Of a stretch of 60,335 nt of DNA, positions 35,097-58,476 are shown piece by piece; position 1 is the first letter of the stretch; the number at the start of each line of letters is the position of its first letter. A model generated the notes under the pieces. It was not told the origin of the DNA. It saw nothing but the letters and a program-made list of their open reading frames with translations, and made no database searches. Origin of the DNA: Candidatus Woesearchaeota archaeon (lineage in GTDB: Archaea > Nanobdellota > Nanobdellia > Pacearchaeales > GW2011-AR1); the NCBI GenBank assembly GCA_964609265.1, contig CAZSQR010000001.1, positions 1-60,335 of the forward strand. The letters run 5' to 3'. The translations under genes and the position numbers were made by a program.

Positions 35097-35762
35097 TTAA
35101 CTGAAAACTTTTTTTAGATATTCTGTTTTTCTTTTATATTTCTTTTTCAGGTATAAGCCATAAATCAGTCCTGCCAAAAGCCCTCCAAAGTGCGCTGTGT
35201 TCCCAATAGGGATATCTCCTGCAACTGAAATAAGCCACAAAACAACCAAAATTCCTGGTCCTGCATATTTCATTTTAATTGGGATAGGAATAAACATAAC
35301 AAAAACAGGAAGATTTGGTGTCAGAAGGACAAGCAAACCAACAAGCCCAAACAATGCTCCTGACGCACCGACGGCAAAAGTGTCAAGGTCAGCTGCAAAA
35401 GCCAAAGAAGACAAAACAAAAAACAATCCTGCAAAAAGACCGGCTACCATATAAAAATAAAAATATCTTTTTCTCCCGAGAATCCTCTCAACAAGACTCC
35501 CTATAAAAAACAAAGAAAACATATTTACAAAAAGATGAAAAAACCCGGCATGCATAAACATGCTTGTAATAAAAGTCCAAATATAATCGCCTTGCAAAAT
35601 ATTTAAAGGTTTTATTGCAATATAATCAATAGGAAAATCCAACCCAATAAGAATCAAAAAAAGAATAAATGTAATAATATTAACAAAAATCAGAATAAGC
35701 GTGATACTAAACATACTGGATATACTTTTTTTCCTCGGAGAATTCCTGTAAGTTCTTGCCAT
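35097..35762 (-). CDS. Rhomboid-family intramembrane serine protease
   Basis: FMHAGFFHLFVNMFSLFFIG, catalytic GASGALFGL, AHFGGLLAG. Confidence 0.85.
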   Translation of the reverse strand: MARTYRNSPRKKSISSMFSITLILIFVNIITFILFLILIGLDFPIDYIAIKPLNILQGDYIWTFITSMFMHAGFFHLFVNMFSLFFIGSLVERILGRKRYFYFYMVAGLFAGLFFVLSSLAFAADLDTFAVGASGALFGLVGLLVLLTPNLPVFVMFIPIPIKMKYAGPGILVVLWLISVAGDIPIGNTAHFGGLLAGLIYGLYLKKKYKRKTEYLKKVFS

Positions 35763-49609: not shown

Positions 49610-49630
49610 AGAGTTATACACTACAAATAG

Positions 49631-49640
49631 ATATATAAAT
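49631..49640 (-). promoter_or_regulatory. TATA-like box upstream of glyS (positions the long N-terminal extension as translated)
   Basis: Minus-strand atttatatat, centred 27 nt upstream of ATG 49609. Confidence 0.5.
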
Positions 49641-49739
49641 CTTTGGTATTAACTACATTTAAATATTTATATACATATATAATAAGTATTCTTATAAAAA
49701 TACATACTTTTTTAAGGCTAATTACATACATGATAGGTA

Positions 49740-52700
49740 ATGGGAAGAACTCGAATAGCTAAAGCTATAATTTTGTCATTAAGGGAGAAAATAAACCTTG
49801 CTGAAAAAGGTGAAAAATATTTTTTAGATTATTTAAATAAACTAGAAGAAAAATATCAGAAGGGGGAAATTTTCTATGATTTTTATGTTGAGACTATTTA
49901 CAAACATTTCGAAGGAAGAACAATAAAAGGATGGATTGAGTATTATGATAATTACATAAAAGGATGTAAAAAAAAGATAAAAGAACAGAAAAAGACTTTA
50001 TTAAGGAAAAAAATTTTGAATAGTTTTCTTTTCTTATTTTTCTTTTCTGTTTTAACCTTAAGCATTCTTAATACATCAGTGAAATTCACTGGTTTTGGAG
50101 TGCAGGAACAGGAGAATTTGACCAAAAATATTACAGAATTTAATGAATCAGATTCAGATGAAATAAAAGGAGAGATTTCTCAAAACCAAACAAATATAAG
50201 TTCTTCCCAAGAGAAATCTCCTCCTTTTTCTGAAACAACAGAAGAATCAGCTGAAGAAAATATAACAAAATCAGAAGAGAATATAACAGAAATTTCTGAA
50301 GAAGAGGTACCAGTTAATATAACAGAAAATGAAACTGAAGTAAACATTACAGAACCAGAAGAGAATATCACTGAAGAAATACCTGAAGAACCAGAAACAA
50401 ATATAACAGAGTCAGAAGAGAATGCAACTGCAGAGGTTCCTGAAGAGATACCTGAAACAAATATAACAGAAAATATTACTGAAGAGATTACTGAAGAAAT
50501 AAATATCACTGCAAATGCAACCATCACAACAATCCAACAGCAAGCAGTTCTTGGACAGCCAGTTAAATGGAAAAAACAAATTTCTCCAGAGACCCCTGGA
50601 AATCTGACATTAAAACTGCCAAAAGAGGCAGAAAACATACAAATTAATAAAATAAAAGAAAAACAAGAAACAAAGGCAAGAGCAAGCATTACAGGAGGAG
50701 TTATTGGAACAGGAGAAAAAGAATCAATAATTTTAAAGATATTTAATTTCTTCAAAAATTTTTTAAATAAAATATTTGGAACAATAACAGGAAAGGCAAT
50801 AGCAACAGAAGGAGAAGAAAAAGAAATTGAGGTAGAGATTGATGATGAGACTGCAGAATATGAAATTGAATATGAAACTCCTGCACCTTATGCAATTGAA
50901 GAAGACTTGCAGAATGGAAAAAAGATAACTATTGTTGGCCCAGAAACAATTCACTATGAAAATGTTCTGGCTTTCACAGAGTTAAACGAAAAGCTTAATA
51001 TCAAAAATCCCTTTTCTGTAAAAATTTACTGGATTGAAAATGACTCATATATACCCATACAGAACATAAATGATTCAGACAGCAACGGAATTTATGACTA
51101 TATTGAATGGGTTGTGCCGAGTTTGTCAGAGCAAACATTTGAAATAATTGTTATAACAAAAGCAGAGCACCTTAATGAGAATAAGGAATTTATTTCTGAC
51201 ATTTATGAAGAAGTTAAGGAGTTAGATGATATATGGAGTGAGGAAATTTCAGATGGAGAGTATATAAGAGTCACTTTTGAAAGGGCACTTGATAATACAA
51301 AAGATATAACAATTTACCCCCGCATTACAAACGGAGATCCAAGAATAGAAGTTTATGAAATTAATGGCACAGAATTAATTGCAGAATTTTCTGAAATTAA
51401 TTCAAATGAATATAATACAGCTTACTTAACCAATCTCCAAGGACAAAAGGATGTTTTTGATTTAAAGATTTTAGACGGAAATATCGAAATTGATTATATT
51501 GTTGATCCTCTAGCAGAGATAACAAAAGTAGGAACAGATACATATAATTCAAGTGCAGCTTCACCATTAGAATTTTCACACACTCTTGTCGAAGGAGATA
51601 ACAGATTAGTTGTTGTTTACTTTGGTGCTGAAAATAATGGTGAAAATGATGTAACAAGTGTAACTTATGGTGGACAATCCATGACCCAGGCTGTTGAAGA
51701 TGGTGGAACAGGAACAGGATACCAAAACAGAGCAGAAATTTGGTATATTCTGGAGAATGACCTTCCATCTAATGGTGCTAATACAGTATCAGCTACAATT
51801 ACTCCAGCAAGTACATTAGATTTTAAGGCATATGCTGCTGAATATACTGGTGTAAATCAGGGAATACCTGAAGCCACAGACGGAACTTATCAAACATCGG
51901 GTTCTACAATTGAAAATACAATTAGTCCTTCTACTGATGCTTGGGTGTTTTCAGCAATGGACGAAGGAAATACAGGTTCTTGGGCACATGGCCAAAGTCA
52001 GGAAGAATTGTGGGACTTTCAAGATGCTTCTTCACAATTTGCTGTTACAGAACTTCGTGGTGCAGATGGGGAAACATCAGTAGATTCTACTTTTACAGGA
52101 ACTGCCAATCGTTTGGCAAGAGTTGCTGCATCATTTGCACCTGCAATAACCAATTCCGCACCATCAACACCAACAAACATAACTTGTGATGGGGGAAATT
52201 GTAACATAACTATTGATACTACTGTTAATATAAATGCCTCTGGCTCCGTAGACGATGATTCAGATGATATAACTTATTTCATTGAAGCTTCTTTAGAAGA
52301 TATAGTAACAAGCGAAAATTCAACAGATGTTAGTATGGCTGGGAGTGGGGGAAGTGGAGGGGGAATTGCATTATATGATGGTTTCAATGAAGGTCCGGCA
52401 GAAGGTCAAGTATCTACAAGTAATTGGGCTGATGGTGGGGGTGACTATTATTGGTTGTATGGTGATGGTAATACGCCATCAGGTACCACAGGTGACAATG
52501 TCAATGTAGAAGGTGACTATTTTATTTATATAGAGTCATCAAGTCACACTAATGAAAACAATTACCTCGTCAGTTCTGAATTCGAATTAGCTTCTAGCGA
52601 TACTTTAGTTCTTGACTTCTTGTATTATATGTATGGTGCGCATATACAAACTTTAAAAATTGAGATAGATTACGGTGGTGGTTGGGATGAACTCTGGAGC

Positions 52701-55193
52701 GCGGGTCCTGGACAGATACAAACAGGTTTTGGTCAAGCATGGTCACATGGTCTTGCATATGCATCGGATGGTGCAAACGCACCTTATACTGGAACACATC
52801 AGATAAGAATAAATGGATTATCAGGTACTAGTTATTATGGTGATATATGTGTTGATGTTGTTTATCTTAATGTTACAGGAAGTAGTGGAACCTCAAATGA
52901 AACAAACACAACAGCAATAGAATATACTGATGTTGGTGTTGATGGAGTAGGCATAACTAATGTCACGATACAAGTTGATGTTACTTCTTATGATCCAAGA
53001 GCAAGTGTGGACCAGTCAACAAATGACCCTGATTTATGGCTTGAAATGTGGAACAGCACAGACTGGATAAATATCGGAGCATTTGACTTGCCTTCAACTT
53101 ATACAGGAACAGGACTACAAACAAATAATGAGAACTTTTCCTTGAGCACAACAGATTCAGAAATACTAACTGCATGGGCAAGCTCTGTAAATCAAGACCT
53201 AAGAATAAAAGGAGTTTATATGGACCATAATGAAACTCTTCCAGACCAAATCAATTATACAAATATTTGGATAAGTATTAATGGTAAGTTATGGATAGAA
53301 ATTGGAAACCATACAGAATCTACTTTTTTAACATGGAATACAACTGATTCAGATGACCAAAATTGCATTGATTTGAGGGCAAGAGCAATTGATTTAGCTG
53401 GAAGCAATACATATTCAGGCTACTTCAACAAAAGCTGTTGCTTAAACATAAGCCACGGGGGGGGAGATACCGAAGGTCCAGCAATAAGTAATGAAGGAGC
53501 TAATGAAACTGAAATTTACCAAAATGAATATTTTTGCCTGAACATAACTGCAACAGATTCCAGCGGAGTCAGTGCTGTTTATGCAGAAATCTGGAATACA
53601 ACTGACTGGTTAAATTATACAATGACTGATGCAGGCTCCACAACCTGTGATGGGGGAAGTGATGATAACATCTATGGAGTTGAAATTCAGGGGACAGCAA
53701 CAGGATTATGGAATTATAGCAAGGTTCATGCAAATGACACATTAAACAATTGGAACTCTCATGATTTTTCTGATTTAACAATAAATGTAACATCAGTGCC
53801 AAATCAGGCTCCACAGATAACATTTGTCTCACCAATACCAAACACAGACCCGACAGAATCTTCCTCAAAGTTAATAACATTTTATGCAACAATGTATGAC
53901 GCAGATGGTGTTGGTGATTTAAATGACGCAAGTGTAAATGCAAGCTTTAGCAAATCAGGACAAACAACAAGATACAATTCAAGCTGTGTGCTAGTTGGAG
54001 ACTTAGATGCAAACTCTGCGAATTATTCCTGCACAATAACCATGTGGTATTTTGATGGGAATGGGGCCTGGACAATAACAGTTTATGGTGAAGATGATGA
54101 GCCAGCTTCTGCTACAAATGATACAGAAACTTTTACTTACAATTTATTACAGGCAATTGTAATTTCTCCAACTCAGATTTCATTAGATGTACAAACTGGA
54201 GCAAAAAACCAGACATCAGATAATGATCCTACAACAGTTAATAATACAGGAAATGCAGAAATAACGTCTGGAAATTTAAGAGTAATTGGAATAGACTTAT
54301 ACGGAGAAACTGATGATAGTGTCTTTATTGGTGTTGGGAATTTTTCTGTAGATATAGATACAGGAGGCTCACCTCCTGCAGAGTGCGACGGCACAACTTT
54401 TGTAAATGGAACAGAAACAGGCATAACCGGAGCAACATTACCGAAGGGGAATTTATCAGTAGGAGGGGGGGCAGGACAAGAACAACTTTATTATTGCATA
54501 AGACAAGTCCCCCAAATATCTTCCCAGACTTATTCAACTTCAAAAGCAGGAAGCTGGACAATAAAAATTGTTATGAGTTTCATTTTTGTATACTCTGCTC
54601 AATTAAGTAATAAAAAGACAAAACAGAAGAAGAAAAAGAAGAAGAAATTAGTAAAAGATGATAAACTTATAGGGGCATTGAATCTTATCTTAGATGAATT
54701 AAAAGAAGAATATTCATTAAATAAAAAAGAAATAATTAAAATAATACTTGAAAAATTAAAAACAAAATATAAAATAAGCAGAAGGGAAATTAATAAAATA
54801 ATTGGAGGAAAAGAATTCTTAATTCCAATAACAATTTTCTCCAAAGAACTTGGTGGTTTGGAAGCAATAACAAAATATATGAAGGAGAATTTAAATATGA
54901 ATTATAGTGACATTGCAAAAGAACTTGAAAGAAATGAAAGAACAATTTGGACAGCATATAATAAGGCAATAAATAAACAAAAAGAATCAATTAAGCCGAA
55001 AGAAACAAAAATATTCTTGCCCATTTCAATATTTGAAAATAACAAATTAACAATACTTGAATCTGTTATTATTTATCTAAAACAAAAAGGATTGAAATAC
55101 ATTGAAATAGCAAAATCATTAAATAGAGACCAAAGAAACATATGGACGATTTATTCAAGGGCTACTAAAAAAATAAAAGATAATAATATTTAA
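49740..55193 (+). CDS. Giant (1,817 aa) two-pass envelope protein: cytoplasmic N-terminus, TM, glycan-sequon-rich ectodomain with MAM-like domain, hydrophobic/poly-K segment, cytoplasmic tandem HTH tail
   Basis: Basic stretch then TM ILNSFLFLFFFSVLTLSIL. NITE repeats. MAM-like FLYYMYGAHIQTLKIEI...GDICVDVVYL. IKIVMSFIFVYSAQL + KKTKQKKKKKKK. Two repeats of ~55 aa with ...IAKxLxRxxRxIWTxY... Confidence 0.8.
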   Translation: MGRTRIAKAIILSLREKINLAEKGEKYFLDYLNKLEEKYQKGEIFYDFYVETIYKHFEGRTIKGWIEYYDNYIKGCKKKIKEQKKTLLRKKILNSFLFLFFFSVLTLSILNTSVKFTGFGVQEQENLTKNITEFNESDSDEIKGEISQNQTNISSSQEKSPPFSETTEESAEENITKSEENITEISEEEVPVNITENETEVNITEPEENITEEIPEEPETNITESEENATAEVPEEIPETNITENITEEITEEINITANATITTIQQQAVLGQPVKWKKQISPETPGNLTLKLPKEAENIQINKIKEKQETKARASITGGVIGTGEKESIILKIFNFFKNFLNKIFGTITGKAIATEGEEKEIEVEIDDETAEYEIEYETPAPYAIEEDLQNGKKITIVGPETIHYENVLAFTELNEKLNIKNPFSVKIYWIENDSYIPIQNINDSDSNGIYDYIEWVVPSLSEQTFEIIVITKAEHLNENKEFISDIYEEVKELDDIWSEEISDGEYIRVTFERALDNTKDITIYPRITNGDPRIEVYEINGTELIAEFSEINSNEYNTAYLTNLQGQKDVFDLKILDGNIEIDYIVDPLAEITKVGTDTYNSSAASPLEFSHTLVEGDNRLVVVYFGAENNGENDVTSVTYGGQSMTQAVEDGGTGTGYQNRAEIWYILENDLPSNGANTVSATITPASTLDFKAYAAEYTGVNQGIPEATDGTYQTSGSTIENTISPSTDAWVFSAMDEGNTGSWAHGQSQEELWDFQDASSQFAVTELRGADGETSVDSTFTGTANRLARVAASFAPAITNSAPSTPTNITCDGGNCNITIDTTVNINASGSVDDDSDDITYFIEASLEDIVTSENSTDVSMAGSGGSGGGIALYDGFNEGPAEGQVSTSNWADGGGDYYWLYGDGNTPSGTTGDNVNVEGDYFIYIESSSHTNENNYLVSSEFELASSDTLVLDFLYYMYGAHIQTLKIEIDYGGGWDELWSAGPGQIQTGFGQAWSHGLAYASDGANAPYTGTHQIRINGLSGTSYYGDICVDVVYLNVTGSSGTSNETNTTAIEYTDVGVDGVGITNVTIQVDVTSYDPRASVDQSTNDPDLWLEMWNSTDWINIGAFDLPSTYTGTGLQTNNENFSLSTTDSEILTAWASSVNQDLRIKGVYMDHNETLPDQINYTNIWISINGKLWIEIGNHTESTFLTWNTTDSDDQNCIDLRARAIDLAGSNTYSGYFNKSCCLNISHGGGDTEGPAISNEGANETEIYQNEYFCLNITATDSSGVSAVYAEIWNTTDWLNYTMTDAGSTTCDGGSDDNIYGVEIQGTATGLWNYSKVHANDTLNNWNSHDFSDLTINVTSVPNQAPQITFVSPIPNTDPTESSSKLITFYATMYDADGVGDLNDASVNASFSKSGQTTRYNSSCVLVGDLDANSANYSCTITMWYFDGNGAWTITVYGEDDEPASATNDTETFTYNLLQAIVISPTQISLDVQTGAKNQTSDNDPTTVNNTGNAEITSGNLRVIGIDLYGETDDSVFIGVGNFSVDIDTGGSPPAECDGTTFVNGTETGITGATLPKGNLSVGGGAGQEQLYYCIRQVPQISSQTYSTSKAGSWTIKIVMSFIFVYSAQLSNKKTKQKKKKKKKLVKDDKLIGALNLILDELKEEYSLNKKEIIKIILEKLKTKYKISRREINKIIGGKEFLIPITIFSKELGGLEAITKYMKENLNMNYSDIAKELERNERTIWTAYNKAINKQKESIKPKETKIFLPISIFENNKLTILESVIIYLKQKGLKYIEIAKSLNRDQRNIWTIYSRATKKIKDNNI
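50247..50525 (+). repeat. Imperfect tandem array encoding acidic N-I-T-E sequon repeats
   Basis: EENITKSEENITEISEEEVPVNITENETEVNITEPEENITEEIPEEPETNITESEENATAEVPEEIPETNITENITEEITEEINITANATITT. That is 11 N-x-T sequons in about 93 aa. Confidence 0.85.
53802..54563 (+). repeat. Copy A of a duplicated module of about 760 bp (C-terminal ectodomain of the giant gene)
   Basis: Shares long identical runs with 55374-56124, e.g. ataccaaacacagacccgacagaatcttc and gcagatggtgttggtgattt. The proteins align end to end (...SPIPNTDPTESSSK.ITFYA.MYDADGVGDLND...GSWTI). Confidence 0.85.
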
Positions 55194-55217: not shown

Positions 55218-56135
55218 ATGAAAAAGAGAGAGATTAACCTTTTAATTTTACTTTTAATAATAGTCTTATCTTATTCCTTTGTATCTGCAATGGATTTTTC
55301 TGATTTATGGGGAAAGATTACAGGCAAGGTAACAAGCCAGGAAACAAATATATCAATTACTGTTGCAGGTGCTAATCAAGCACAAATAACCACTGTTTCT
55401 TCAATACCAAACACAGACCCGACAGAATCTTCTTCAAAAGCAATAACATTTTACGCGATTATGTATGATGCAGATGGTGTTGGTGATTTGAATGACTCAA
55501 GTGTGAATGCAACTTTCAGCAAAGCAGGAGAGACAACAAGATATAACTCAAGCTGTGTGTTGGTTGGGGATTTAGATGCAACCTCAGCAAATTATTCTTG
55601 CTTAATAACTATGTGGTATTGGGACGGGAGTGGGGCCTGGACTATTAATGTAAGTGGAACAGATTTAGGAAACCAAACACGTGTTTATAATGATTCAACA
55701 ACTTTTACCTACAATGAATTAAAAGCAATGGCTATATCCCCCACATCATTAACATGGCCTGGTGTTTCTATTGGTGCAACAAATCAGGTATCAGATAATG
55801 ATCCTACAACAGTTAATAATACAGGAAACTATGATGGAACAATTGATTTAACAGGAATTAATCTTCTCGGTGAAACCACTGCAAGTGAATATATACCTGT
55901 TGTTAATTTCTCTGTGGATATAGATACTGGTGGGGCTGCAGAATGCGACGGCACAAATCTTGTAAATAATACAGCTACAGAAATAACAAGCAGTGATTCA
56001 AATCCAGGGAATCTATCAGCAGGAGGAGGGGCTGGACAAGAAGAACTTTATTATTGCATAGTTGAGGTTCCTTCAGACATATCTTCTCAGACTTATTCAA
56101 CATCAGAAGGAGGTAGCTGGACAATAGCTTATTAA
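55218..56135 (+). CDS. Secreted protein paralogous to residues ~1355-1609 of the giant protein
   Basis: Signal-like MKKREINLLILLLIIVLSYSFVSA. The body aligns with the giant's C-terminal ectodomain module and ends ...GGSWTIAY. It has its own TATA-like box about 26 nt upstream. Confidence 0.7.
   Translation: MKKREINLLILLLIIVLSYSFVSAMDFSDLWGKITGKVTSQETNISITVAGANQAQITTVSSIPNTDPTESSSKAITFYAIMYDADGVGDLNDSSVNATFSKAGETTRYNSSCVLVGDLDATSANYSCLITMWYWDGSGAWTINVSGTDLGNQTRVYNDSTTFTYNELKAMAISPTSLTWPGVSIGATNQVSDNDPTTVNNTGNYDGTIDLTGINLLGETTASEYIPVVNFSVDIDTGGAAECDGTNLVNNTATEITSSDSNPGNLSAGGGAGQEELYYCIVEVPSDISSQTYSTSEGGSWTIAY
55374..56124 (+). repeat. Copy B of the duplicated module
   Basis: See copy A (53802-54563). 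Confidence 0.85.
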
Positions 56136-56136
56136 A

Positions 56137-56682
56137 ATGCAAATAACTAATAATAAAATAATGAAAATTATATTACCAATTTTTCTAATAGTAATTTTAA
56201 TTAGTCTAGTTAATGCCTTTGGAGTCAGCTCTCCTTACTGGGAAGGAAATCCCCTAACATTGGCGGCAGGAGAAACAAAAACAGTTAACTTAAATTTGCA
56301 AAATATGGTGGGGGAAGAAGATGTAAATGTCAAGGTTGAAATAAAAGAGGGCTTGGAAATAGCAAGTTTGAAAGAAGATATATACACTGTTAAATCAAAA
56401 ACCTCAGATACTTTTGTTCCATTAAAAATAAAAATTCCAAGAGAGGCTGAAAATACTTCTTATAAACTTATTGCTGAAGTTAGAACTGTAACCCCTGGAG
56501 GAGAAGGCGGTGCTGTGATGTTGGGAACAGGGATGACTGTTGCATTTGATGTTTTAGTCTCAGGAAAAGTAGAAAGCAATAAATTTATTATAATTATTGG
56601 AGCATGCATAATTTTAGCAATCATAATCTTTATTATAATCATTTTAAGGAAGAAATTTGGGAAGAAAAAGAAGTCTAAATAA
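56137..56682 (+). CDS. Envelope protein: signal peptide, beta-rich domain, C-terminal TM + Lys tail
   Basis: IILPIFLIVILISLVNAFG signal. C-terminal FIIIIGACIILAIIIFIIIIL RKKFGKKKKSK. ATG lies 1 nt after the previous stop. Confidence 0.6.
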   Translation: MQITNNKIMKIILPIFLIVILISLVNAFGVSSPYWEGNPLTLAAGETKTVNLNLQNMVGEEDVNVKVEIKEGLEIASLKEDIYTVKSKTSDTFVPLKIKIPREAENTSYKLIAEVRTVTPGGEGGAVMLGTGMTVAFDVLVSGKVESNKFIIIIGACIILAIIIFIIIILRKKFGKKKKSK

Positions 56683-56721: not shown

Positions 56722-58476
56722 ATGAAAAAAAGAGAAATTTTTTTATTTATTTTTTTACTTTTTATTATATTAATTATTTTGCCAGCAACAAGTATCCTAA
56801 CAGGAAAGGTATCAGTTCAGCCGACAAACATATCAATACAAGTATTACCTACTAGCCCTACATTATCCATAATTTCCCCCCAAAATAAAACTTACTTAAC
56901 TAATATATCCCTATTATTAGATTATTCAGCAGTTAATGCTGAAAACATATGGTATAATCTCGACAATGGAGATAATACAACTATAACCTCTTCAATATAT
57001 TTCAATACTTCTCAGGGGGGACATATACTTTATTTACACGCGAATAATACTTATGGAACAACAACAGAAAATGTAAGCTTTATTGTAAATTCTACAAGAT
57101 TCATAATCTCATACAGCGAGTATAACGGCTCTACAAAAGGTAATTCAACTGATTTCATTGAGTATACTTACGAAGACTTACAAAACCTATCAGGAATAAT
57201 TTTAGAAAACACACAACATGGAAAAATAAATTTTAATGAAATTATTAATTCAACAAATGACTCTAATACTGGTGATAATAAACTTGACTTAGACACTTAT
57301 ATTAATATATCCCCAAATAGAATAGAATTAAACTCAACAGCTATCCCAAATTTCAATAAGTCAGCAACACTTTCTCTTTATAATTTAACATTTAGTAATC
57401 CTAGGATATTAAGAGATGGGAGTGTCTGTCCTTCAACTATCTGCACAGAACAGAGTTATTCTAGTGAAACCGGCACCCTTGTATTTAATGTAACACATTT
57501 TACAGTTTATTCTGCGGAAGAAACACCTGCAGGAGCTGTCATAACAGGGGGAAGTGGCGGGGGAAGAGCTGGTAAAAAGGATTTTTCTGTAGATAAAGAA
57601 ACTCTTTCAGTAACCTTAAAACAAGGAGGGACAGCAAAAGATTTCTTCATCATAAAAAATACAGGAAATAAAGTATTAAGTTTTACAATCCAAACCCAAA
57701 ACATTGAAAAATTTTTAAAGGTAGATGAATTAAGTTTCAGCTTAAATGCTGGTGAATCTAAAATGGTCATCTTAGATTTTTTAGCGAGATCTGAGGTTAC
57801 ACCTGCTTTATATCTTGGAAAACTCATCATTAAAGCAGGTGCTAGTTCTATAATTGAAAAAGAAATTTTAGTTTCAATTGAGGTTGAATCCAGAAATCCT
57901 ATTTTTGATGTTAAAGTGGAGATACCAAAAAGATTTCGATATTTAATGCCAGGAGAAGAATTAATTTCTAATATAAAAATTTTTAATTTAGAAAGAGAAA
58001 GAACTACTGACGTATTTGTAGAGTATATTATAAAAGATGAGGAAGAAAATGAAATTCTGTATGAAACTGAAACTATTTTTGTAGAAACTCAGACAAGTTT
58101 TGTTAAGAGTTTTGAAATTCCAAAAAATATAAAATTAGGCACATATATCTTTTATGTAAGAACAACTTATAATGGAGAAGTAGCAAGCTCAACTTCATGG
58201 TTTAATATTGGACAAAAATCATTGGCATCTTTTATTTTAAGAAATCTGAATTTAATAGGGATAATCTTAGGCATAATTTCAACGTTTATAATCTTAATAA
58301 TCATATTGCGTAAATTCGGGGAAAAAGAGATTAAATTTCCAAAATTAATAAAAAAGAAGAAAGAAAGAAAAGGTTTTTTTAAGTCTATTTTCAAAAAGAA
58401 AGAAGAAAAAAGAGATAGGGGACTTAAATATTATAAACAAAGAATAAGGAAGGAAATAGAAAAACATAAAAAGTGA
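56722..58476 (+). CDS. Envelope protein (584 aa): signal/anchor, sequon-rich domains, two Ig-like/CARDB-like repeats, C-terminal TM + basic tail
   Basis: MKKREIFLFIFLLFIILIIL...LTGKVSVQPTNISIQV. Many N-x-S/T sequons. VTLKQGGTAKDFFIIKNTGNKVLSF. C-terminal LIGIILGIISTFIILIIIL RKFG. Confidence 0.65.
   Translation: MKKREIFLFIFLLFIILIILPATSILTGKVSVQPTNISIQVLPTSPTLSIISPQNKTYLTNISLLLDYSAVNAENIWYNLDNGDNTTITSSIYFNTSQGGHILYLHANNTYGTTTENVSFIVNSTRFIISYSEYNGSTKGNSTDFIEYTYEDLQNLSGIILENTQHGKINFNEIINSTNDSNTGDNKLDLDTYINISPNRIELNSTAIPNFNKSATLSLYNLTFSNPRILRDGSVCPSTICTEQSYSSETGTLVFNVTHFTVYSAEETPAGAVITGGSGGGRAGKKDFSVDKETLSVTLKQGGTAKDFFIIKNTGNKVLSFTIQTQNIEKFLKVDELSFSLNAGESKMVILDFLARSEVTPALYLGKLIIKAGASSIIEKEILVSIEVESRNPIFDVKVEIPKRFRYLMPGEELISNIKIFNLERERTTDVFVEYIIKDEEENEILYETETIFVETQTSFVKSFEIPKNIKLGTYIFYVRTTYNGEVASSTSWFNIGQKSLASFILRNLNLIGIILGIISTFIILIIILRKFGEKEIKFPKLIKKKKERKGFFKSIFKKKEEKRDRGLKYYKQRIRKEIEKHKK

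What the first reader, a model, noticed from the sequence alone, without database searches (positions are those of the whole stretch)
54561..55193. Cytoplasmic tandem helix-turn-helix tail fused in frame to the giant surface protein: a possible membrane-tethered transcription factor
Seen: the paralog (55218-56135) terminates at ...GSWTIAY*. At the equivalent point (...GSWTI) the giant ORF continues without a stop. It runs through a 15-residue hydrophobic stretch (IKIVMSFIFVYSAQL) and a positive stop-transfer (SNKKTKQKKKKKKK). About 180 further residues follow, containing two copies of a ~55-aa unit. The copies are FLIPITIFSKELGGLEAITKYMKENLNMNYSDIAKELERNERTIWTAYNKAINK and IFLPISIFENNKLTILESVIIYLKQKGLKYIEIAKSLNRDQRNIWTIYSRATKK. 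The spacing L-x-x-LE-...-(Y)-x-(D/E)-IAK-x-L-x-R-x-x-R-x-IW-x-x-Y-x-(K/R)-A matches the HTH of sigma-70 region 4 / LuxR-GerE type domains. No TATA-like box sits about 26 nt upstream of the internal Met (54573), unlike nearly every independent gene here, which argues for a true fusion. With the N-terminal basic segment + TM (residues ~80-111), the predicted topology is N-in, ~1,500-aa ectodomain, C-in. Inference: an extracellular contact sensor wired directly to DNA binding. It may act at the membrane (ToxR/CadC logic) or after proteolytic release; a rhomboid protease is encoded at 35097-35762. I know of no described archaeal system of this kind.
Basis: partly seen in the sequence, partly recalled or inferred. 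Interest (0 to 1): 0.8.

Follow-up and report, generated by a model that had tools for sequence, protein, structure and literature searches.

The report
Giant surface protein carrying its own regulator
A 1,817-residue surface protein of a tiny DPANN archaeon really does end in a DNA-binding module that probably sits inside the cell. The same design recurs in hundreds of related archaea, together with a conserved candidate binding site in the gene's own promoter, so the protein probably controls its own production.

Summary
ORF 49740-55193 runs without a stop through ...GSWTI, a short hydrophobic stretch and a poly-lysine run. It ends in two 39%-identical sigma-70-region-4/LuxR-type helix-turn-helix (HTH) units (Pfam E=5e-8; AlphaFold pLDDT 95).

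The fusion is not an artefact. In about 64 of 80 species-level DPANN loci (Pacearchaeota, Woesearchaeota, Nanoarchaeota) the tail is in frame with a large open frame. Of these frames, 35 are complete at 1,207-3,456 aa and the rest are cut by a contig end. A profile of the tail finds 2,002 protein clusters at E<=1e-10.

Two new facts change the reading.
- An 18-nt box, ATACATAnATAATAAGTA, flanks the TATA box of the giant gene at fixed positions -70 and -18. It occurs almost nowhere else.
- In related lineages the same HTH module is a separate soluble protein. Its gene lies behind the same boxes, at the head of the same surface-protein operon.

The best reading is therefore a membrane-tethered, probably autoregulatory transcription factor.

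Weak points:
- The second membrane span is very short (median 12 residues) and fails a classical hydropathy test.
- DNA binding is untested.
- The sensor role and the rhomboid link have no support.

Membrane-bound archaeal regulators are already known, so this is a new variant of a known kind. I found no description of it in the paper library.

The parts
49671..49688 (+). Distal 18-nt box ATACATATATAATAAGTA, at -69 from the ATG. Candidate operator.
   Evidence: The same box sits at -69/-70 upstream of the orthologous gene in most of the 32 complete loci with usable upstream sequence. It occurs in the 60-kb window only here and at 49722.
49700..49717 (+). Half box ATACATAC (49700-49707) directly abutting the TATA-like element TTTTTTAAGG (49708-49717).
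   Evidence: Orthologs have ...TACATACATTTATAAG at the same place. The distance from the TATA element to the ATG implies a leaderless or nearly leaderless mRNA, as for many genes of the window.
49722..49739 (+). Proximal 18-nt box TTACATACATGATAGGTA. It ends exactly at the start codon and lies between the TATA element and the transcription start, a position typical of archaeal repressor sites.
   Evidence: It is at a fixed -17/-18 in orthologs, 52 nt (5 helical turns) from the distal box.
49740..55193 (+). Giant ORF of 1,817 aa, one continuous reading frame.
   Evidence: The tail is in frame with a large open frame in about 64 of 80 related loci; 35 frames are complete at 1,207-3,456 aa and the rest are cut by a contig end.
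49740..50012 (+). N-terminal basic domain of about 91 aa, predicted cytoplasmic. It has no Pfam match and is conserved across the family.
   Evidence: K+R 25%, no sequons.
50013..50069 (+). Membrane span 1 (ILNSFLFLFFFSVLTLSIL), a signal anchor.
   Evidence: 19-residue hydropathy mean 2.28. Basic residues lie on its N-terminal side.
50070..54566 (+). Ectodomain of about 1,500 aa. It is acidic and sequon-rich and contains a MAM domain. The ends are conserved and the middle is variable. The last ~300 aa are duplicated as the downstream paralog.
   Evidence: MAM, 7.8e-7; aa 136-460 and 1301-1607 are conserved in 40 and 72 loci, aa 801-1300 in only 4; 55 sequons against 24.2 +/- 4.0 expected..
54567..54605 (+). 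Short hydrophobic connector IVMSFIFVYSAQL, the putative membrane span 2.
   Evidence: In 60 fused relatives the stretch from the conserved Trp to the basic run has a median of 12 residues. It is absent from the split (standalone) forms.
54606..54647 (+). Polybasic run SNKKTKQKKKKKKK, acting as stop-transfer and cytoplasmic retention signal.
   Evidence: RRRKKKK-type run in the fused relatives examined.
54648..54815 (+). Helical linker domain (LVKDDKLIGALNLILDELKEEYSLNKKE...). It is also present at the N-terminus of the standalone homologs.
   Evidence: (three helices, pLDDT 50-70).
54816..54977 (+). HTH unit 1 (aa 1693-1746). Recognition helix ERNERTIWTAYNKA.
55011..55172 (+). HTH unit 2 (aa 1758-1811). 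Recognition helix NRDQRNIWTIYSRA.
   Evidence: best Sigma70_r4_2 stretch. (EnfR 8hno: 47 aa, rmsd 0.5 A, 36% identity).
55218..56135 (+). Secreted paralog of the membrane-proximal ectodomain, without connector or tail. Part of the conserved gene cluster.
   Evidence: A homolog is present in 71 of 80 loci, directly downstream of the giant gene in many of the best-matching loci.
56137..56682 (+). 181-aa type I membrane protein with a normal ~21-residue anchor and a basic tail. Conserved cluster member.
   Evidence: (60 loci).
56722..58476 (+). 584-aa type I membrane glycoprotein-like protein. Conserved cluster member.
   Evidence: (66 loci).

Best explanation
The tail is a genuine, conserved part of the giant protein.

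Architecture. An N-terminal cytoplasmic domain and membrane span 1 are followed by a ~1,500-aa glycosylated ectodomain. A very short hydrophobic segment and a polybasic run then bring the chain back to the cytoplasm. There a helical linker carries a compact pair of sigma-70-region-4/LuxR-type HTH units.

Origin. The module is the fused form of a DPANN-specific regulator. In related lineages that regulator is a separate soluble protein encoded at the head of the same surface-protein operon.

Proposed function. Its most likely target is the 18-nt box ATACATAnATAATAAGTA. The box is repeated 52 nt apart on either side of the TATA element of the gene's own promoter, and the proximal copy lies between the TATA element and the start codon. 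Each finished surface protein would thus place one operator-binding module under the membrane and feed back on transcription of its own operon. The position of the proximal box suggests repression.

What is shown: the fusion, the HTH fold, the conservation, the boxes and their exclusivity, and the split-gene relatives.

What is inferred: the cytoplasmic location of the tail, binding of the tail to the boxes, and the sign of regulation.
For: Fusion
- There is no stop at the junction.
- The junction motif Q.YST...G[SA]WTI[KR]-hydrophobic-RRRKKKK-linker-HTH-HTH recurs in independent contigs.
- The tail is in frame with a large open frame (>400 aa, up to 3,624 aa) in about 64 of 80 GTDB species loci.
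- A profile of the tail finds 2,213 cluster representatives, 2,002 at E<=1e-10. Many are 1,000-5,919 aa with the module at the extreme C-terminus.

HTH fold
- Pfam Sigma70_r4_2 matches above its cut-off.
- The AlphaFold model of the two units has pLDDT 95.4 and pTM 0.87.
- Single units superpose on EnfR (0.5 A), the RcsB and EsrB DNA-binding domains (0.8 A) and region 4 of sigma F, R and E (0.7-2.1 A).
- Residues of the recognition helices are invariant in the 17-18 aligned relatives.

Topology
- Sequons and charge differ sharply between the ectodomain and both termini.
- The connector is present in the fused forms examined and absent from standalone forms, which also have no signal peptide.

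Operator
- Boxes sit at fixed -69/-70 and -17/-18 upstream of the ATG in most of the 32 complete loci with usable upstream sequence.
- Of 90 matrix hits in 1.17 Mb, 75 lie within 260 nt upstream of the giant gene. About 6 more (L011, L023, L030, L078) lie at gene starts I had mis-assigned. A shuffled control gave 6 hits.
- Only 2 sites occur in the 60-kb window, both at this promoter.
- In an independent metagenome scan, paired boxes were found essentially only at family genes: 30 of 31 family-associated stretches had two or more boxes. Only 5 of 88 other stretches did; 2 of those 5 are further giant-gene promoters and 3 are simple repeats.

Split arrangement
- Boxes, then a standalone HTH gene, then an overlapping surface-protein gene with the same N-terminal domain that ends ...AWTIQVI*, then the paralog and the orf181 homolog (L147, L177, L181, L196, L065, L070, L076, L080).

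Co-variation
- A second paralog class of HTH genes has a different unit-1 recognition helix and a variant box, ATACTTACATAATAT.

Sole copy
- No other HTH-module gene lies within 10 kb in 64 fused loci, apart from one frame-broken tail (L026), or anywhere in the 60-kb window.
Against: - The putative second span is very short. There is a median of 12 residues between the conserved Trp and the basic run, with about 8-9 uncharged residues. It fails the Kyte-Doolittle 1.6 threshold (window 1.15, family median 1.07, only 5% at or above 1.6). Other anchors of the same locus score 2.3-3.7. AlphaFold confidence there is below 50. The literature shows that segments as short as 10-13 very hydrophobic residues can insert (PMC4796907), so the span is possible but unproven.
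- No experiment links the tail to the boxes. The association is genomic and partly circular, because the matrix was built from the same promoters.
- The co-variation rests on only two paralog classes.
- I could not search whole genomes, so another regulator or a standalone paralog elsewhere could bind the boxes.
- Foldseek E-values are poor (>=0.05), as is usual for a ~50-residue HTH. No solved structure matches the two-unit body as a whole.
Confidence: 0.6

Rival explanations
1. Release by proteolysis (Notch/SREBP-like). Contact or damage at the ectodomain triggers cleavage in or next to the short membrane segment. The freed tandem HTH then acts as a soluble factor on the boxes.
For: - Soluble standalone homologs exist, so the module can work untethered.
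- The connector is unusually short, and 38 of 60 relatives have Pro or Gly in the last 5 residues before the basic run, a helix-destabilising feature.
- A rhomboid protease is encoded in the window.
Against: - The rhomboid is 14 kb away, and one is within 10 kb in only 1 of 80 related loci.
- I did not look for a conserved cleavage motif, and the cluster members scanned against Pfam (paralog, orf181, orf584) match no protease family.
- There is no evidence of processing.
- Rhomboids are common housekeeping enzymes (my own knowledge).
Confidence: 0.15
2. The tail is not the box-binding factor. It is a protein-protein or general nucleic-acid-binding module, for example one contacting the transcription machinery or anchoring the protein to a cytoplasmic structure. 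The boxes are then bound by a different regulator or are a promoter-strength element.
For: - Sigma region 4 domains also make protein contacts (my own knowledge).
- Binding of the tail to the boxes is only inferred.
- Whole genomes could not be searched.
Against: - Boxes and HTH module stay together in both the fused and the split gene orders.
- A paralog class with a different recognition helix has a different box.
- The recognition helices are the most conserved part of the tail.
- A tandem HTH fits an 18-nt bipartite site.
Confidence: 0.12
3. The connector does not cross the membrane. The basic HTH tail is exported with the ectodomain and lies on the outer face, binding anionic lipids, extracellular DNA or host surface polymers.
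For: - The hydrophobic stretch fails a classical transmembrane criterion and is far weaker than other anchors of the locus.
- DPANN archaea depend on external nucleotides (my own knowledge).
Against: - A run of 7-10 Lys/Arg directly after a hydrophobic stretch is a strong cytoplasmic retention signal (positive-inside rule, established knowledge).
- The tail has 1 sequon against 55 in the ectodomain.
- Standalone homologs have no signal peptide.
- The connector appears only where the module is fused.
- The boxes persist in fused-type promoters.
Confidence: 0.08
4. Assembly or sequencing artefact. A stop codon or frameshift between 54560 and 54575 was missed, and the tail is really a separate small gene.
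For: - One related locus (L026) has the tail out of frame shortly after the basic run.
- Lysine-coding A-rich runs are prone to indel errors (my own knowledge).
Against: - The same in-frame junction occurs in about 64 independent species-level assemblies and in over 100 metagenome proteins.
- The junction residues are conserved as protein.
- There is no conserved internal start codon and no TATA element before Met 54573.
Confidence: 0.02

Closest known systems
Transmembrane transcription regulators of the ToxR/CadC/TcpP type (one-component, membrane-bound; census in PMC10269533)
   Same: One polypeptide joins an extracytoplasmic domain, a membrane span and a cytoplasmic DNA-binding domain, and is thought to act on DNA from the membrane. 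By the census's operational definition (a DNA-binding domain plus at least one membrane span) this protein qualifies.
   Different: - Those proteins have an N-terminal OmpR-type winged HTH, one span and a small periplasmic sensor.
- Here the DNA-binding module is C-terminal, is a tandem sigma-4/LuxR-type HTH, needs two spans, and follows a ~1,500-aa adhesin-like ectodomain.
- The census text does not mention DPANN.
ArnR/ArnR1 of Sulfolobus (PMC6396743)
   Same: Archaeal membrane-bound transcription factors that control genes for cell-surface structures through repeated boxes in the target promoter.
   Different: They have an N-terminal HTH, a HAMP-like and sensor domain and two C-terminal spans, with no large ectodomain. 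They were not detected as relatives, and they regulate other genes rather than being part of the surface protein.
Sigma-70 region 4 / LuxR-GerE HTH domains, and EnfR (TON_1525, PDB 8hno/8hnp; PMC10570040)
   Same: Each unit matches Pfam Sigma70_r4_2. Each superposes at 0.5-2.1 A on EnfR, the RcsB and EsrB DNA-binding domains and region 4 of sigma F, R and E.
   Different: There is no sigma region 2, so it is not a sigma factor. The two units form one compact body that has no global match among solved structures.
Membrane-tethered factors activated by regulated intramembrane proteolysis (Notch, SREBP, ATF6)
   Same: A large extracellular part, a membrane span and a cytoplasmic transcription-factor domain in one chain.
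   Different: These are eukaryotic, and cleavage and release define them. No evidence of cleavage or of a linked protease was found here.
Bipartite tandem-HTH DNA binders (Tc3 transposase 1u78, CRISPR-repeat-binding protein 2lvs)
   Same: Two small HTH domains in one chain that read a site of about 15-20 bp. They are the best, though weak, whole-module Foldseek matches.
   Different: TM-scores are only ~0.3 and the relative arrangement of the units differs. There is no sequence relationship.

Membership tests
Sigma-70 region 4 / LuxR-GerE type HTH (Pfam PF08281, HTH clan) | Profile match above the curated cut-off | tested here: met
   Tail alone scores 32.8 bits against a cut-off of 25.7, E=5.3e-8, 2 stretches. 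The whole protein scores 25.7 bits, exactly at the cut-off.
Sigma-70 region 4 / LuxR-GerE type HTH (Pfam PF08281, HTH clan) | Helical fold with an HTH that superposes on solved members | tested here: met
   The model has pLDDT 95.4. Local superpositions of 44-51 residues give rmsd 0.5-2.1 A at Foldseek probability 0.99-1.0. Foldseek E-values themselves are >=0.05.
Bacterial sigma factor | Region 2 (-10 recognition, core binding) together with region 4 | tested here: not met
   Only region-4-type matches were found. The organism is archaeal: TFE alpha and tRNA intron endonuclease are in the window.
Transmembrane transcription regulators (operational definition of PMC10269533) | A predicted DNA-binding domain and at least one predicted membrane span in one protein | tested here: met
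   HTH module. Span 1 at aa 92-110 has hydropathy 2.28.
Transmembrane transcription regulators (functional sense) | DNA-binding domain on the cytoplasmic side of the membrane | tested here: inconclusive
   This needs the short connector to span the membrane. The hydropathy test fails (1.15 against 1.6), but charge, sequons, the positive-inside rule and comparison with split forms favour a cytoplasmic tail. No DeepTMHMM or TOPCONS was available.
Transmembrane transcription regulators (functional sense) | Sequence-specific DNA binding and control of transcription | not testable with these tools
   Only a candidate operator was found.
ToxR/CadC family | N-terminal OmpR-type winged HTH, single span, C-terminal periplasmic sensor | tested here: not met
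   The domain order is reversed and the HTH is of a different type.
Factors activated by regulated intramembrane proteolysis | Cleavage in or near the span with release of the cytoplasmic domain | not testable with these tools
   No proteomic data are available.
Factors activated by regulated intramembrane proteolysis | Genomic linkage to an intramembrane protease | tested here: not met
   The rhomboid is confirmed but lies 14 kb away, and one is within 10 kb in only 1 of 80 loci.
C-terminal sorting signals (PGF-CTERM/archaeosortase, LPXTG/sortase type) | Signature motif, hydrophobic helix and basic cluster at the extreme C-terminus | tested here: not met
   About 180 folded, conserved residues follow the basic run, and no PGF or LPXTG motif is present.

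The most novel reading that the evidence does not exclude
The giant protein is a one-molecule contact-to-transcription pathway of a Notch-like kind in archaea. Attachment of the variable, adhesin-like ectodomain to a host cell strains or exposes the unusually short, Pro/Gly-terminated membrane segment. The tandem-HTH tail is then cut free (or, conversely, pulled away from the nucleoid). Occupancy of the boxes at the operon promoter changes, so the episymbiont re-tunes its surface on contact.
Probability: 0.15. Interest if true: 0.9.

Novelty: new variant of a known kind. Interest (0 to 1): 0.7.

Why it matters
- DPANN archaea are tiny, mostly uncultured episymbionts. How they regulate and use their huge surface proteins is essentially unknown.
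- This is a widespread, conserved design: 354 related stretches among the genome contigs species-representative genomes and about 2,000 protein clusters. The main giant surface protein carries a transcription-factor module, and its promoter carries a precise candidate operator. That gives a concrete, cheap experiment: test the ~180-aa tail against an 18-nt box.
- The fused and split gene orders form a natural experiment on what membrane tethering adds to a regulator.
- If tethering is confirmed, the family of transmembrane transcription regulators would extend to a very different architecture: a C-terminal tandem sigma-4-like HTH behind a 1,500-aa ectodomain and an extremely short membrane segment.
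- It would also show direct coupling between the amount of a surface protein and transcription of its own gene.

Tried and rejected
- Frameshift or missed stop: rejected by conservation of the in-frame junction.
- Internal promoter or internal start for a separate tail protein: there is no TATA-like element before Met 54573, and the Met is not conserved in relatives.
- Ribosome sliding on the lysine run: the longest A run is only 5 nt, so I did not pursue it.
- Rhomboid linkage: tested by synteny and not supported.
- Sorting-signal reading of the connector (archaeosortase-like): rejected because a folded domain follows it.
- Whole-module structural match: two Foldseek searches gave no hit at E<=0.001. 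Only single-unit local matches were found.
- PDB sequence profile: only EnfR, at E=0.014.
- Wider regulon: I looked for boxes elsewhere. None were found in the window, and only singleton, chance-like matches turned up in the metagenome scan. Whole genomes could not be searched.
- Literature: seven searches found no description of this family (with follow-up reading).
- A faithful delta-G insertion predictor could not be rebuilt from memory, so only Kyte-Doolittle hydropathy and length statistics are given.

Full report
**1. Checking the observation**

The window has 33% G+C. It carries archaeal markers: tRNA intron endonuclease and TFE alpha.

ORF 49740-55193 (+) is a single 1,817-codon frame. 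The downstream ORF 55218-56135 ends ...GSWTIAY*. It is 64% identical over 285 aa to the last ectodomain part of the giant, and the alignment stops exactly at GSWTI.

At that point the giant continues in frame with these segments:
- K-IVMSFIFVYSAQL, aa 1610-1622
- SNKKTKQKKKKKKK, aa 1623-1636
- a 56-residue helical linker
- two ~54-residue units, aa 1693-1746 and 1758-1811

The units are 39% identical to each other (E=5e-13). Pfam Sigma70_r4_2 matches the tail at E=5.3e-8, above its curated cut-off, in two stretches.

Two details are weaker than stated.
- The connector's best 19-residue Kyte-Doolittle mean is 1.15. It is 2.28 for the N-terminal span and 3.2-3.7 for the anchors of the two neighbouring membrane proteins.
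- A TATA-like hexamer at -40..-22 is present at 24 of 41 gene starts, not 'nearly every' one. It is indeed absent before the internal Met at 54573.

**2. The fusion is real and widespread**

A search with the tail returned 58 proteins from DPANN metagenome bins. Many carry the same junction...Q.YST...G[SA]WTI[KR], then 8-13 hydrophobic residues, RRRKKKK, the linker and two HTH units.

A scan of the genome-contig collection (one genome per GTDB species) found 354 stretches encoding a relative. Of the 80 loci kept (Pacearchaeota, Woesearchaeota and Nanoarchaeota bins), about 64 have the tail in frame with a large open frame. Thirty-five frames are complete at 1,207-3,456 aa. The rest run into a contig end and reach 3,624 aa.

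A profile search of 1.84 billion cluster representatives found 2,213 proteins, 2,002 at E<=1e-10. Many are 1,000-5,919 aa with the module at the extreme C-terminus. Of 196 retrieved sequences, 118 carry the Trp-hydrophobic-polybasic connector followed by the HTH module.

The ~91-aa N-terminal basic domain and span 1 are conserved across the family as well. The gene order is also conserved: divergent aminoacyl-tRNA synthetase, giant gene, ~300-aa paralog, 181-aa membrane protein, 584-aa membrane protein. The ends of the ectodomain are conserved and its middle is not. A missed stop or frameshift is excluded for all practical purposes.

**3. What the tail is**

An AlphaFold model of the whole tail is confident only from the first HTH unit onwards. 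The two units modelled alone give pLDDT 95.4 and pTM 0.87. Each unit is a short strand plus three helices, and together they form one compact body.

Foldseek finds no global match at E<=0.001. Single units superpose very well on:
- EnfR (TON_1525, 8hno): 47 residues, 0.5 A, 36% identity
- the LuxR-type DNA-binding domains of RcsB and EsrB: 0.8 A
- region 4 of sigma F, R and E: 0.7-2.1 A

EnfR is also the only PDB sequence hit (E=0.014). It is an archaeal HTH repressor (PMC10570040).

The invariant residues cluster in the recognition helices, R..RTIWT.Y and RDQRNIWTIY. This suggests one conserved target.

**4. Topology**

Evidence that the ectodomain and the tail sit in different compartments:
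- The ectodomain has 55 N-X-S/T sequons against 24.2 +/- 4.0 expected from its composition, and 4% K+R.
- The tail has 1 sequon and 24% K+R. The N-terminal domain has 0 sequons and 25% K+R.
- Standalone homologs of the module have no signal peptide or hydrophobic segment.
- The hydrophobic-plus-polybasic connector is found only where the module is fused behind an ectodomain.

These points, with the positive-inside rule, favour N-in, ectodomain-out, C-in.

The connector is nevertheless strikingly short. There is a median of 12 residues (IQR 11-13) between the conserved Trp and the basic run in 60 relatives, and only 5% reach the classical hydropathy threshold. Segments of 10-13 very hydrophobic residues can insert through the translocon (PMC4796907). 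The span is therefore plausible but not shown. I put the cytoplasmic location of the tail at about 0.8.

**5. A candidate operator**

I aligned the upstream regions of the complete orthologs with usable upstream sequence. This showed an 18-nt box, ATACATAnATAATAAGTA, at fixed positions -69/-70 and -17/-18 from the ATG. A half box abuts the TATA element TTTATAAG.

In the window the elements lie at:
- 49671-49688: distal box, perfect match
- 49700-49707: half box
- 49708-49717: TATA-like element
- 49722-49739: proximal box, two mismatches, ending at the ATG

The distance from the TATA element to the ATG implies a leaderless or nearly leaderless mRNA. The proximal box therefore lies between the TATA element and the transcription start, the usual position of archaeal repressor sites (established knowledge).

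The box is specific to this promoter.
- With up to 2 mismatches it occurs nowhere else in the 60-kb window.
- In 1.17 Mb of related loci, 75 of 90 matrix hits lie within 260 nt upstream of the giant gene. About 6 more lie at starts I had mis-assigned. A shuffled control gave 6 hits.
- An independent exact-match scan of metagenome contigs returned 119 stretches. Thirty-one were at family genes, and 30 of these had two or more boxes. Eighty-eight were elsewhere and almost all were singletons. Two of the five exceptions were further giant-gene promoters at contig ends and three were simple repeats.

**6. The split version**

In Woesearchaeota-type loci the same boxes precede a 174-237-aa standalone gene that encodes the linker domain plus the two HTH units. 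This is seen in L147, L177, L181, L196, L065, L070, L076, L080 and L075.

The stop of that gene overlaps or abuts the start of a surface-protein gene with the family's N-terminal domain. In L147 that surface protein ends ...GGAWTIQVI* with no connector or tail. It is followed by homologs of the paralog and of the 181-aa protein. In L072 and L074 an HTH gene beginning MKNKRK... or MKIKKRTRTEKK... starts immediately after the stop of a giant gene, a gene order from which the fusion could arise by loss of the stop codon.

A second paralog class of HTH genes, each again followed by a large surface-protein gene, has a different unit-1 recognition helix (RN[EQ]IALAVTYRNA). It has a variant repeated box, ATACTTACATAATAT.

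Module, boxes and surface-protein operon thus stay together through gene fission or fusion and through paralog divergence. This is the main basis for proposing that the module binds the boxes. In fused-type loci no second module gene lies within 10 kb, apart from the frame-broken tail of L026, and there is none in the 60-kb window.

**7. Most likely mechanism and rivals**

Best reading (0.6): a membrane-tethered tandem-HTH regulator that binds the boxes of its own promoter. Output of the operon would then be tied to the number of completed surface proteins, probably by repression.

Rivals:
- the same module acting after proteolytic release (0.15)
- the module is not the box binder (0.12)
- the tail lies outside the cell (0.08)
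- assembly artefact (0.02)

The rhomboid is real but unlinked.

**8. Comparison with what is known**

Membrane-bound transcription regulators are known in archaea. ArnR/ArnR1 are examples (PMC6396743), and a census found 1,384 archaeal cases in 367 of 404 species (PMC10269533). The kind is therefore not new.

The architecture is new:
- a C-terminal tandem sigma-4/LuxR-type module
- a ~1,500-aa adhesin-like ectodomain
- two spans, one of them extremely short
- a cognate operator in the gene's own promoter
- a lineage-wide distribution in DPANN archaea

Seven literature searches found no description of it (with follow-up reading).

**Verdict.** This is a real, conserved and apparently undescribed variant of a known kind of system. 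It comes with a sharply testable hypothesis. Interest 0.7.

Noticed in passing
window 50070-50105 (giant, ...VKFTGFGVQEQ), 55308-55340 (paralog, GKITGKVTSQET), 56794-56830 (orf584, SILTGKVSVQPT); also L065, L070, L076, L147: A short motif [IFL]TG[KFR].[VAT]..Q follows the signal peptide or first membrane span of several different surface proteins of these archaea. It could be a processing or sorting site. If the giant protein is cut there, only the short C-terminal connector would anchor it.
   Followed up: no
window 49740-50012: The ~91-aa N-terminal basic, helical domain of the giant (MGRTR.AKA...YL..L...Y....ISY..Y.E...DGRT..EWI.YYD.YI..C) is conserved across the family and in the split-type surface proteins. 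It has no Pfam match. Both ends of the giant protein would lie in the cytoplasm, so the two terminal domains might interact.
   Followed up: partly
L147 951-1149: Six boxes in tandem with a 32-nt period precede the standalone HTH gene. Other loci have 2-4 boxes (L051, L063, L047), so box number varies between lineages.
   Followed up: partly
L036, L039, L041, L071; proteins P0001, P0002, P0003, P0005: Some relatives carry the two-HTH module twice, giving four HTH units and tails of 267-382 aa.
   Followed up: no
L026 7856-8473: In this genome the tail is out of frame 34 residues after the polybasic run, while a near-identical metagenome protein (P0017) is intact. This is either a pseudogene or strain variant, or an indel error near the A-rich lysine run.
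   Followed up: partly
protein P0058 (191 aa, ENA contig of 3.3 kb): A response-regulator receiver domain is fused to a single HTH unit that is 71% identical to unit 2. This is either a further use of the unit as an output domain or a chimeric contig.
   Followed up: no
L008, L012, L025, L061, L068: Contigs carrying this archaeal gene cluster are filed under Patescibacteria, Bacillota or 'bacterium' bins. They are probably mis-binned DPANN contigs.
   Followed up: no
window about 49617-49660; upstream regions of L002, L010, L023, L025, L026, L036, L038, L043, L053: A second conserved motif, (G)GTAGGCACTAC, lies about 90-120 nt upstream of the giant gene in many loci; the window has a degenerate ACACTAC / TTAACTAC. 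It lies at the 5' end of the divergently transcribed aminoacyl-tRNA synthetase gene. Its role is unknown.
   Followed up: no
window 55218-56135 compared with 53757-54563: The paralog is 64% identical to the membrane-proximal part of the giant in the same genome. That is higher than the identity of either to most orthologs, which could reflect recent duplication or gene conversion.
   Followed up: no
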